Source: Escherichia coli
GTDB lineage: Bacteria > Pseudomonadota > Gammaproteobacteria > Enterobacterales > Enterobacteriaceae
DNA: 64,000 nucleotides
Strand: one strand, 5' to 3'
Assembly (NCBI RefSeq): GCF_013122565.1
Contig: NZ_CP053258.1
Positions 47,401 to 50,400 of this stretch are shown here, in pieces. Position 1 is the first letter of the stretch. Each line of letters begins with the position of its first letter. The position numbers were made by a program.

Positions 47401-50400
47401 CTGCTGACTCCCGGCAAACTGAAAAACTTCCTCGTCGAGAAAATGCGTACCCTCGGTACTGCAGCCTGCCCGCCGTACCATATCGCGTTTGTGATTGGCG
47501 GTACGTCTGCGGAAACCAACCTGAAAACCGTCAAGTTAGCAAGCGCTCACTATTACGATGAACTGCCGACGGAAGGGAACGAACATGGTCAGGCGTTCCG
47601 CGATGTCCAGCTGGAACAGGAACTGCTGGAAGAGGCCCAGAAACTCGGTCTTGGCGCGCAGTTTGGCGGTAAATACTTCGCGCACGACATTCGCGTTATC
47701 CGTCTGCCACGTCACGGCGCATCCTGCCCGGTAGGCATGGGCGTCTCCTGCTCCGCTGACCGTAACATTAAAGCGAAAATCAACCGCGAAGGTATCTGGA
47801 TCGAAAAACTGGAACACAATCCAGGCCAGTACATTCCACAAGAACTGCGTCAGGCCGGTGAAGGCGAAGCGGTGAAAGTCGACCTTAACCGCCCGATGAA
47901 AGAGATCCTCGCCCAGCTTTCGCAATACCCGGTATCCACCCGCTTGTCGCTCACCGGCACCATTATCGTGGGTCGAGATATTGCACACGCCAAGCTGAAA
48001 GAGCTGATTGACGCCGGTAAAGAACTGCCGCAGTACATCAAAGATCACCCGATCTACTACGCGGGTCCGGCGAAAACGCCTGCCGGTTATCCATCAGGTT
48101 CACTTGGCCCAACCACCGCAGGTCGTATGGACTCCTACGTGGATCTGCTGCAATCCCACGGCGGCAGCATGATCATGCTGGCGAAAGGCAACCGCAGCCA
48201 GCAGGTTACCGACGCGTGCCATAAACACGGCGGCTTTTACCTCGGTAGCATCGGCGGTCCGGCGGCGGTACTGGCGCAGCAGAGCATCAAGCATCTGGAA
48301 TGCGTCGCTTATCCGGAGCTGGGTATGGAAGCTATCTGGAAAATCGAAGTAGAAGATTTCCCGGCGTTTATCCTGGTCGATGACAAAGGTAACGACTTCT
48401 TCCAGCAAATCGTCAACAAACAGTGCGCGAACTGCACTAAGTAACCTCTTCGGCCCAGCGCCTGGCAGCATGCTGCCAGGTGATCCCCCTGGGCCACCTC
48501 TTTTGCGATTGTAATTTCACGCTTGCTGGTGAATAGTCAGTATTTTCCCTGACTTGCGAACTCACCATGACCCGCACACTCAAGCCGTTAATTCTTAACA
48601 CCGGCGCACTGGCGCTAACGTTAATCCTGATTTATACCGGCATTTCGGCCCATGACAAACTCACCTGGCTGATGGAAGTGACACCGGTGATTATTGTCAT
48701 GCCGCTACTCCTTGCCACCGCGAAACGTTATCCGTTAACGCCGCTGCTTTATACGCTCATTTTCTTTCACGCCATCATCCTGATGGTCGGCGGACAATAC
48801 ACCTACGCGAAAGTCCCCGTTGGTTTTGAGGTGCAGGAATGGCTGGGGTTGAGCCGTAATCCGTATGACAAGCTGGGGCATTTTTTCCAGGGGCTGGTGC
48901 CTGCACTGGTGGCACGAGAGATCCTTGTGCGCGGGATGTACGTTCGCGGACGTAAAATGGTGGCGTTTCTGGTCTGTTGCGTGGCGCTGGCGATAAGCGC
49001 GATGTATGAATTAATCGAGTGGTGGGCGGCACTGGCGATGGGCCAGGGAGCGGATGATTTTCTCGGCACCCAGGGCGACCAGTGGGACACGCAATCCGAT
49101 ATGTTCTGCGCGCTGCTTGGCGCATTAACGACGGTGATATTCCTCGCTCGCTTTCATTGCCGCCAGCTACGGCGCTTTGGCTTAATCACCAGAGCGCCGG
49201 AAGCGATAACCCCTTAACGGTGCAACCAGCCTGGCAGCCAGTCGCCGTGGGCGGCAATCAGGTCGTCAACAAGAGCATATATTTCATCAATGCCCAGCAC
49301 GGCGGCAGTATGCGGGTCCATCATCGCAGCGTGGTAAACACGGTCGCGATTTTCGGTGAGAATGGCTTCAGTCAGCAGCGTCTGTACGTTGATGTTGGTT
49401 TGCATCAGGGCGGCCAGATGCGAAGGTAGCGTACCGACTTTGGTCGGCTGAATGCCATTAGCATCAACCAGACAGGCTACTTCCACACAACATCCTTGTG
49501 GCAGGTTATCAATCAAACCATCGTTACGGACGTTGCCGTAAATCACACTCGGCTCACCGGTCCAGATAGCGTTCATAATCGTGCTGGCATATTCCCGTGA
49601 CGGTTTAATATCAATCCGGGAGGCGTTTTTATACTCCTCCAGCTCTTTATGCCAGTTCGCCAGCTGCTCGACGCAGCGTTTCGGGTACTCATCCAGCGGT
49701 ACTTTATAACGCTCAATCAAATCCTCACGACCTGGCTTAATAAACCACGGTGTGTACTCAGCAAAATGTTCTGACGATTCCGTGACGAAATAGCCCAGCT
49801 TTTTGAACATTTCATAGCGCACAATATTCTGGCAGCGAGTATTGCCGTGAATATTCGGCTTCGGTGCCTGCCCTGCGTCATAAGCCGCCAGCAGTTCCGG
49901 GTAGAGATTCACGTAACTGCCGTCGGCGGTTTTGCGCTCCAGCTCCAGGTAAAACGCCATATGGTTGATACCTGCGCAACGGTAACGCAGCGTAGCCGGG
50001 TCGATATTGAGGTCACGCGCCAGCTCTTCCGCCGTTCCCTGCACCGAATGGCACAGCCCGACCTGTTTGATATGCGGATAGCGGGCATACATCGCCCAGG
50101 TATTCATCGCCATTGGGTTAACATAGTTGAGCATGGTGGCATCGGGGCAGACTTCCGTCATGTCCTCGCAAATTTGCCACAAATGCGGAATGGTACGTAG
50201 CGCGCGCATAATACCGCCCGGCCCCAACGTATCGGCAATGGTTTGTTCCAGACCATGCCGTTTACAGACCTCGAAATCAGTCACCGTGCAAGGTTCATAA
50301 CCGCCAATCTGAAATGCCACCACGACAAAATCGGCATCCTGTAAGGCTTCTTTCTGTTGGGTGTGGCAGGTGATTTTGCCGCTGGCCCCTGCTGAATCCA

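What the first reader, a model, noticed from the sequence alone, without database searches (positions are those of the whole stretch)
49180..49250. melA is present but no melB permease: melA and yjdF stop codons overlap
In K-12 melA is followed by melB (melibiose:cation symporter) before the convergent yjdF. Here the melA stop (49214-49216, minus) and the yjdF stop (49215-49217, plus) overlap and no permease-like ORF lies between them. MelA (451 aa) and MelR (302 aa) are intact, so the locus has a regulator and a hydrolase but no dedicated transporter. The yjdF ORF (216 aa) may be a few residues longer than I recall for K-12, which would fit a junction running into its 3' end.
Basis: partly seen in the sequence, partly recalled or inferred. 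Interest (0 to 1): 0.4.

Follow-up and report, generated by a model that had tools for sequence, protein, structure and literature searches.

The report
Old, widespread melB deletion allele
This E. coli lacks the melibiose permease gene melB because it carries an old 1.6-kb deletion found in about a quarter of sequenced E. coli; the deletion is already published for phylogroup B2, so the finding is real but ordinary.

Summary
yjdF (48567-49217, +, 216 aa) and melA (49214-50569, -, 451 aa) converge and share the tetranucleotide TTAA, which holds both stop codons. There is no melB between them, and no MelB homologue anywhere in the 64-kb window.

Relative to K-12, about 1,645 bp are missing: the yjdF stop codon, the yjdF-melB spacer, all of melB and most of the melB-melA spacer. 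YjdF ends in RAPEAITP instead of G.

This is not a strain-specific event. The same junction is in 1,264 of 5,426 complete E. coli genomes, including the B2 archetype CFT073 and the phylogroup D strain 042. It is also in three other Escherichia species-level lineages. Touchon et al. 2009 already list melB as absent from B2 strains.

melA, melR and yjdF stay under strong purifying selection in melB-less lineages (dN/dS 0.01-0.08). The melB-less strains CFT073 and UTI89 metabolise melibiose in published Biolog tests. Uptake most likely runs through another permease, classically LacY.

Two details are new but minor. The junction creates a stable 11-bp hairpin, and the allele is shared across species. 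Interest is low.

The parts
48567..49217 (+). yjdF, a DUF2238 inner-membrane protein of 216 aa. Codons 1-208 are collinear with K-12 yjdF. Codon 209 is AGA (Arg) instead of GGA (Gly), and seven new codons follow.
   Evidence: ORF; Pfam DUF2238 at E = 2.7e-58; alignment to K-12.
49191..49214 (+). New YjdF C-terminal tail, RAPEAITP. It replaces the terminal Gly of K-12 YjdF and is read from the junction filler.
   Evidence: Translations. The same tail (one lineage has ATTP) is in every melB-less Escherichia lineage examined.
49194..49213 (.). A 20-bp junction filler, GCGCCGGAAGCGATAACCCC, between the last yjdF homology and the melA stop. It may be a remnant of the hairpin that follows melA in melB-positive genomes.
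   Evidence: It shares the 9-mer GCGCCGGAA with the K-12 melA-melB spacer. Permutation p is about 0.012 against the spacer alone and 0.28 against the whole deleted segment, so the origin is unresolved.
49214..49217 (.). TTAA, holding the overlapping stop codons of the convergent genes melA (49214-49216, -) and yjdF (49215-49217, +).
   Evidence: In NT1F34 and E1V33 a single A-to-G change keeps both stops (TAG for yjdF; CGC-TAA for melA).
49170..49199 (.). Stem-loop created by the junction: an 11-bp stem (CGGCGCTTTGG / CCAGAGCGCCG) and an 8-nt loop. The left arm is native yjdF coding sequence; the right arm is codons 208-209 plus the filler.
   Evidence: -21.5 kcal/mol on the + strand and -19.5 on the - strand, against -4.4 for the same place in K-12. 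There is no U-tract, so it is not a canonical intrinsic terminator.
49214..50569 (-). melA, a GH4 alpha-galactosidase of 451 aa, intact and the same length and C-terminus (GWLHR) as in K-12.
   Evidence: 98.4% nucleotide identity to K-12. dN/dS is 0.008-0.028 among melB-less lineages.
50570..50851 (.). melA-melR divergent regulatory region of the K-12 type (98.2% identity). The inverted CCCATAAACTCAGATC / GATCTGAGTTTATGGG motifs, which I read as MelR sites from memory, are intact.
   Evidence: Alignment. B2 genomes carry a very different allele (83-86% identity).
50852..51760 (+). melR, an AraC-family activator of 302 aa, intact.
   Evidence: No amino-acid differences from K-12 (dN = 0; 99.5% nucleotide identity). 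dN/dS is 0.014-0.045 among melB-less lineages.

Best explanation
The window carries an old deletion allele of the mel locus.

**The event.** The ancestral order, still seen in K-12, Citrobacter and Kluyvera, was melR / melA-melB / yjdF / fumB. One illegitimate deletion, net about 1,645 bp, removed the yjdF stop codon, the yjdF-melB spacer with its REP element and hairpin, all of melB, and most of the melB-melA spacer.

**Consequences for the sequence.** yjdF now reads through 20 bp of leftover sequence and stops at a TAA that overlaps the melA stop. The fusion also created a new 11-bp GC-rich hairpin just inside the 3' end of yjdF, about 16 nt downstream of the melA stop on the melA transcript.

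**History.** The allele arose once, because every carrier has the same junction. It predates or has crossed Escherichia species boundaries. It is fixed in phylogroup B2 and has moved by homologous recombination into other backgrounds, including the one sampled here, whose melR, regulatory region and melA 5' end are K-12-like.

**Function.** melR and melA remain functional and regulated. This is inferred from purifying selection and from the intact putative MelR-site motifs. Melibiose and other alpha-galactosides are inferred to enter through another permease, most likely LacY, so the strain is probably still melibiose-positive if it has lacY.

**Shown:** the anatomy, the distribution, the single origin and the selection. 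**Inferred:** the uptake route, the phenotype of this strain and any role of the hairpin.
For: - **Anatomy and deletion size:**. The fumB-melR span is 6,607 bp in K-12 and 4,963 bp here.
- **Polarity.** Outgroups with melA-melB(-yjdF-fumB) include Citrobacter gillenii, C. amalonaticus, C. portucalensis, C. braakii, Kluyvera and Salmonella (melB present, no yjdF match); MelB follows MelA in most of the 80 species recovered.
- **Frequency:** 1,264 of 5,426 complete E. coli genomes have the contiguous junction. melB DNA is found in 4,136 of 5,426, which sums to 5,400.
- **Same junction and same YjdF tail** in CFT073, SCU-115, FDAARGOS_1302, NT1F34, E. whittamii, SCPM-O-B-8794 and E1V33.
- **About 266 junction genomes have the K-12-like regulatory region,** among them strain 042, and about 998 have the B2-type one.
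- **Published:** melB is listed among genes absent from B2 strains (PMC2617782).
- **Selection among melB-less lineages:** dN/dS is 0.008-0.028 for melA with dS up to 0.45, 0.014-0.045 for melR and 0.05-0.08 for yjdF.
- **Phenotype:** CFT073 and UTI89 metabolised D-melibiose in Biolog plates although transporter-less models predicted they would not (PMC3229490).
- **Alternative route:** the standard melibiose-negative host DW2 needs both melB and lacZY deleted (PMC8437787).
- **Hairpin:**
Against: - The rest of the source genome was not available, so neither lacY nor a melB copy elsewhere could be checked for this strain.
- The LacY route rests on established K-12 genetics (own knowledge plus the DW2 genotype), not on a test in melB-less natural isolates.
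- The origin of the 20-bp filler is not resolved. If it does derive from the melA-melB spacer, a second small loss of about 25 bp is needed.
- Sharing of the junction across species could reflect recombination rather than great age. I did not build a recombination-aware phylogeny.
- No close relative of the window exists among the 5,426 genomes (best 99.0-99.3% over 12-24 kb), so its own lineage history is unknown.
Confidence: 0.85

Rival explanations
1. A recent deletion specific to this strain, or an assembly error, removed melB. The locus would then be a fresh loss of function on its way to decay.
For: On the window alone, the absence of melB and the altered yjdF 3' end fit this reading.
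Against: The identical junction is in 1,264 independent complete genomes and in three other Escherichia species-level lineages. melA, melR and yjdF show dN/dS of 0.01-0.08 across melB-less lineages separated by dS of about 0.4.
Confidence: 0.01
2. The melB-less arrangement is ancestral in Escherichia. In this reading melB was inserted or restored later in the lineages leading to K-12-type strains, by recombination from one donor.
For: - The junction allele is in B2 and in three other Escherichia species-level lineages.
- melB is unusually uniform: at least 99% identical to K-12 in 4,127 of 4,136 genomes. By subtraction, about 1,200 melB-positive genomes have melA below 99%.
- In Escherichia sp. 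MOD1-EC7003, melB is 99.5% identical to K-12 and its two spacers 97.1% and 100%, while the flanking genes are about 96-97%. That shows melB can be imported by recombination.
Against: - At the family level melA-melB is clearly ancestral, and the junction keeps a possible remnant of the melA-melB spacer, so the melB-less state is itself a deletion product.
- The lower diversity of melB can arise simply because melB cannot recombine with melB-less haplotypes while melA can.
- No rooted phylogeny was made.
Confidence: 0.15
3. MelA is retained for a role unrelated to imported melibiose, for example hydrolysis of internally generated alpha-galactosides. Melibiose-positive phenotypes of melB-less strains would then come from some unrelated system.
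For: There is strong purifying selection on melA and melR without a dedicated permease. melR-melA without an adjacent melB also occurs in five Citrobacter species with different junctions and in Klebsiella and Raoultella.
Against: MelR, the melibiose-responsive activator, is kept as well, along with the conserved motifs I read as its sites. CFT073 and UTI89 use external melibiose. LacY is an established melibiose carrier (own knowledge; DW2 genotype).
Confidence: 0.07

Closest known systems
melB absence in E. coli phylogroup B2 (Touchon et al. 2009, PLoS Genet, PMC2617782; example CFT073)
   Same: melB is missing, melA and melR are kept, and the breakpoints are identical. The TTAA stop overlap and the YjdF RAPEAITP tail are the same.
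   Different: The window's flanks are not B2-like. Its melA-melR regulatory region is 98.2% identical to K-12 but only about 83% to CFT073. It belongs to the minority class of about 266 genomes, among them strain 042 and NT1F34, in which the deletion sits in a non-B2 haplotype.
K-12 melR / melAB operon
   Same: The divergent AraC-type regulator, the GH4 alpha-galactosidase, a K-12-like promoter region with conserved putative MelR-site motifs, and the same neighbours (fumB, adiA).
   Different: The second gene of the operon (melB, a Na+/melibiose symporter) and the downstream hairpin and REP element are absent. melA is now the last gene and converges directly on yjdF.
mel operon deletion of STEC/EPEC O80:H2 (the '70mel' replacement; PMC11945584)
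   Same: A lineage-marking deletion at the mel locus of natural E. coli, with consequences for diagnostic phenotype.
   Different: In O80:H2 the paper reports that the mel operon (melR, melA, melB) is not detected and a 70-bp fragment is present instead; those strains do not ferment melibiose. Here only melB is lost and melA and melR are conserved.
Independent melB losses in Citrobacter (C. youngae, Citrobacter sp. MGH106 and others) and melR-melA without adjacent melB in Klebsiella oxytoca-group species and Raoultella
   Same: melR and melA are retained and no melB lies next to melA. In Citrobacter melA again abuts yjdF.
   Different: The junctions differ: 55-70 bp containing a REP-like hairpin, in at least two classes in Citrobacter. 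Klebsiella has a different genomic context. These are separate events.

Membership tests
Canonical melR-melAB melibiose operon (K-12 type) | AraC-family activator MelR encoded divergently from melA | tested here: met
   melR at 50852-51760, 302 aa, with HTH_AraC and HTH_18 domains and no amino-acid differences from K-12 (dN = 0).
Canonical melR-melAB melibiose operon (K-12 type) | GH4 alpha-galactosidase MelA as the first operon gene | tested here: met
   451 aa with Glyco_hydro_4 and Glyco_hydro_4C domains; 98.4% nucleotide identity to K-12.
Canonical melR-melAB melibiose operon (K-12 type) | GPH-family symporter MelB encoded immediately downstream of melA | tested here: not met
   There is no space between melA and yjdF, and no MelB homologue in the 64-kb window.
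Canonical melR-melAB melibiose operon (K-12 type) | Regulatory region with MelR-binding repeats | tested here: met
   The 282-bp intergenic region is 98.2% identical to K-12, and the inverted CCCATAAACTCAGATC / GATCTGAGTTTATGGG motifs are intact. Binding itself was not tested, and calling these motifs MelR sites rests on my own knowledge.
Escherichia melB-deletion allele (as in B2 strain CFT073) | Same breakpoints: yjdF codon 209 AGA, the 20-bp filler, and the TTAA shared stops | tested here: met
   Base-by-base comparison with CFT073, SCU-115, FDAARGOS_1302, NT1F34, SCPM-O-B-8794 and E1V33 and with E. whittamii.
Escherichia melB-deletion allele (as in B2 strain CFT073) | No melB elsewhere in the genome | not testable with these tools
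   The source genome was not available. At population level, 4,136 genomes with melB plus 1,264 with the junction make 5,400 of 5,426.
Phylogroup B2 haplotype of the mel region | B2-type divergent melA-melR intergenic allele and B2-like flanking genes | tested here: not met
   The window's intergenic region is 82.7-85.8% identical to B2 alleles and 98.2% to K-12. The flanks are closer to K-12 and O145 than to CFT073.
O80:H2-type whole mel operon deletion (70mel) | melR, melA and melB all absent | tested here: not met
   melR and melA are intact here. The O80:H2 description comes from PMC11945584.

The most novel reading that the evidence does not exclude
The melB deletion may be a trans-species presence/absence polymorphism. 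It would have arisen once, be older than or exchanged across the splits between E. coli and several other Escherichia lineages, and be kept alongside the melB-positive allele by recombination and perhaps habitat-dependent selection (Na+-coupled MelB versus H+-coupled LacY uptake). The hairpin created at the junction would have been co-opted as a two-way 3'-end element for the now overlapping convergent genes melA and yjdF. Melibiose induction of melA could then interfere, through antisense transcription, with yjdF.
Probability: 0.2. Interest if true: 0.35.

Novelty: already known. Interest (0 to 1): 0.15.

Why it matters
**Practical lessons**
- Absence of melB does not predict a melibiose-negative phenotype. 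Metabolic models of B2 strains made that error for CFT073 and UTI89.
- Genome annotation and metabolic reconstruction should treat melA without melB as a normal, maintained state of E. coli, not as a decaying locus.

**Evolutionary point**
- The locus is a clean example of a single deletion allele that is shared across species boundaries and shuffled among phylogroups by homologous recombination.

None of this changes current understanding. The absence of melB in B2 has been in the literature since 2009.

Tried and rejected
- **Strain-specific deletion or assembly artefact.** Rejected, because the junction recurs in 1,264 complete genomes.
- **Source is a Shigella.** This was suggested by the lack of a close match in the E. 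coli collection. It is unlikely, because the cadC, cadB and cadA ORFs are full length in the window (with gene order as in CFT073).
- **Origin of the 20-bp filler.** Local alignment to the 1,671-bp K-12 segment, both strands, gives only a 9-mer in the melA-melB spacer. It is significant only if the search is restricted to that spacer. An alternative alignment to the K-12 yjdF stop region (CCGGATAAC) needs two insertions. I left the origin unresolved.
- **Microhomology at the breakpoints.** None convincing was found by eye.
- **Intrinsic terminator at the junction.** The consensus scan finds only weak sites at chance level (4 found, 2.5 expected). The junction hairpin lacks a U-tract.
- **Literature on melB and phylogroups.** Searches combining melB, melibiose and phylogroup terms gave nothing directly on this. 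One search call failed on a term that was too short. PMC9836092 had no melB text in the body.
- **ATCC 25922.** It is MEL-positive on API 20E. I did not verify that its genome carries the deletion, so I do not use it as evidence.
- **The 75% melibiose-positive figure.** This is the published figure for E. coli (PMC11546641), and it is numerically close to the 76% of genomes with melB. I do not equate the two, because melB-less B2 strains use melibiose.

Full report
**1. The observation**

The ORF table and the sequence show yjdF at 48567..49217 on the + strand (216 aa). melA lies at 49214..50569 on the - strand (451 aa). Bases 49214-49217 are TTAA. TAA at 49215-49217 ends yjdF, and the complement of 49214-49216 ends melA. 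MelR (50852..51760, 302 aa) is intact.

Pfam confirms DUF2238 for YjdF, both GH4 domains for MelA, and AraC-type HTH domains for MelR. A tblastn search with K-12 MelB finds nothing in the 64-kb window (best E = 1.7).

**2. What is missing relative to K-12**

A K-12-type locus has yjdF (209 aa), a 138-bp spacer, melB (473 aa), a 102-bp spacer and melA. Alignment shows homology with K-12 yjdF through codon 208. Codon 209 is AGA here and GGA in K-12.

Next come 20 bp (49194-49213, GCGCCGGAAGCGATAACCCC) that do not align with K-12. Homology resumes exactly at the melA stop.

The fumB-to-melR span is 6,607 bp in K-12 and 4,963 bp here, a net loss of about 1,645 bp. The loss covers:
- the yjdF stop codon;
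- the spacer with its REP element and hairpin;
- melB;
- most of the melB-melA spacer.

YjdF now ends ...LITRAPEAITP instead of ...LITG.

The 20-bp filler shares the 9-mer GCGCCGGAA with one arm of the hairpin that follows melA in K-12. That match is significant only if the search is limited to the 102-bp spacer (p about 0.012, against 0.28 for the whole deleted segment). The origin of the filler stays open.

**3. The junction is not private to this genome**

| Measure | Count |
|---|---|
| Complete RefSeq E. coli genomes searched | 5,426 |
| Genomes with a contiguous match across the junction | 1,264 |
| Genomes with K-12 melB DNA | 4,136 |
| Sum of the two classes | 5,400 |

The two classes are therefore essentially complementary. 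Junction genomes have no melB elsewhere at the DNA identity that megablast can see.

The B2 archetype CFT073 has melA and yjdF with the same 4-bp overlap and the same junction sequence base for base, apart from two silent changes. Touchon et al. 2009 list melB among the genes absent from group B2 strains (PMC2617782).

A 1.9-kb query reaching into the melA-melR regulatory region splits the junction genomes into two classes:
- about 998 have a B2-type, strongly divergent regulatory region (90-95% overall identity);
- about 266 have a K-12-like one. These include EAEC 042, porcine ETEC O139:H1 and NT1F34.

The window belongs to the second class. Its regulatory region is 98.2% identical to K-12 and about 83% to CFT073. 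Its flanks are closer to K-12 and O145:H28 than to B2. The simplest reading is that homologous recombination moved the deletion allele into non-B2 backgrounds.

**4. Polarity and age**

A scan of one genome per species with MelA, followed by tblastn mapping, shows melA-melB in most of the 80 species recovered. It shows the full order melR / melA-melB / yjdF / fumB in several Citrobacter species. The melB-less state is therefore derived at the family level.

Within Escherichia, the same geometry, the same filler and the same YjdF tail occur in three other records:
- E. whittamii;
- the species-representative genome labelled E. coli SCPM-O-B-8794, which is only 92-96% identical to the window;
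- Escherichia sp. E1V33.

The allele arose once. It either predates these splits or has crossed them.

Five Citrobacter species also have melA next to yjdF without melB, but with different junctions of at least two classes. Klebsiella oxytoca-group species and Raoultella have melR-melA without an adjacent melB. Loss of melB with retention of melA is therefore recurrent.

**5. Is the remaining locus decaying?**

No. The table gives dN/dS among melB-less Escherichia lineages.

| Gene | dN/dS |
|---|---|
| melA | 0.008-0.028 (dS up to 0.45) |
| melR | 0.014-0.045 |
| yjdF | 0.05-0.08 |

All are full length. The inverted motifs in the regulatory region, which I take to be MelR sites from my own knowledge, are intact in the window.

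Published Biolog data show that CFT073 and UTI89 metabolised D-melibiose although their metabolic models predicted no growth. The paper defines that as a 'false negative' (PMC3229490). I confirmed the deletion in CFT073 only. The paper gives no reason for the false prediction; I infer that the missing MelB transport step caused it.

The standard melibiose-negative host for MelB work, DW2, carries deletions of both melB and lacZY while keeping melA (PMC8437787). This fits the classical knowledge that LacY carries melibiose. That last point is my own knowledge and was not tested here.

I therefore expect a strain with this allele to remain melibiose-positive if it has lacY. The window does not contain the lac region, so this cannot be checked here.

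**6. A small structural by-product**

The fusion places GCGCCG next to CCAGA. This creates an 11-bp stem with the native yjdF sequence CGGCGCTTTGG (49170-49199). Its predicted energy is -21.5 kcal/mol on the + strand and -19.5 on the - strand, against -4.4 at the same place in K-12.

The K-12 hairpin and REP element downstream of melB are gone. The new hairpin has no U-tract, and the terminator scan is at chance level. Any role as a 3'-end element for the two convergent, now overlapping genes is speculation. The stem is conserved in all carriers, but without informative covariation, because one arm is coding.

**7. Side observations on diversity**

melB is at least 99% identical to K-12 in 4,127 of 4,136 genomes. 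By subtraction, roughly 1,200 melB-positive genomes have melA below 99%.

In Escherichia sp. MOD1-EC7003, melB is 99.5% identical to K-12 and its two spacers are 97.1% and 100% identical. Its yjdF, melA and fumB are about 96-97%. This shows that the melB-positive allele is also exchanged by recombination.

These numbers leave room for a scenario in which melB was restored in some lineages. The lower diversity also follows simply from melB being unable to recombine with melB-less haplotypes.

**8. Verdict**

The finding is real and correctly described. It is a common, old and published presence/absence polymorphism, not a peculiarity of this genome. The locus left behind is maintained and probably functional.

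Novelty: already known. The shared junction across species and the junction hairpin are minor additions. Interest is low (0.15).

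Noticed in passing
window 50570-50851; L086 (CFT073), L083, L084: The melA-melR regulatory region of B2 genomes is only 83-86% identical to the K-12-type allele carried by the window. The genes on either side are 97-99% identical. The divergence is concentrated between the conserved putative MelR-site motifs and the melR promoter side. The other Escherichia lineages each have yet another version.
   Followed up: partly
L002 3477-4898 (K-12 melB) versus E. coli genomes: melB is unusually uniform in E. coli: at least 99% identical to K-12 in 4,127 of 4,136 genomes. 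The adjacent melA is below 99% in roughly 1,200 melB-positive genomes (by subtraction).
   Followed up: partly
L005 (Escherichia sp. MOD1-EC7003) 1490-3155: In this genome melB is 99.5% identical to K-12 and its two spacers are 97.1% and 100% identical. The flanking yjdF, melA and fumB are about 96-97%. This suggests a recent import of the melB segment by homologous recombination.
   Followed up: partly
L012, L018, L025, L026, L065 (Citrobacter spp.) around 7354-7425: Five Citrobacter species have melA directly followed by a convergent yjdF without melB. They retain 55-70 bp containing a REP-like hairpin, in at least two junction classes. These are melB losses independent of the Escherichia one.
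   Followed up: partly
L039-L044 (Raoultella, Klebsiella oxytoca group), e.g. L041 7348-9000: These have melR-melA with no MelB homologue downstream. In K. spallanzanii the next long ORF resembles a DnaJ-family protein such as cbpA (identified by eye only) and lies on the other strand, so the genomic context is different.
   Followed up: partly
L086 (CFT073) 31811-32453: yjdF is annotated as frameshifted in CFT073. It is intact in the window and in the other melB-less genomes examined.
   Followed up: no
window 20000-56000: No complete RefSeq E. coli genome matches the window better than 99.0-99.3% over 12-24 kb, although the sequence is clearly E. coli sensu stricto with full-length cadC, cadB and cadA ORFs. 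The source lineage seems poorly represented among the 5,426 complete genomes.
   Followed up: partly
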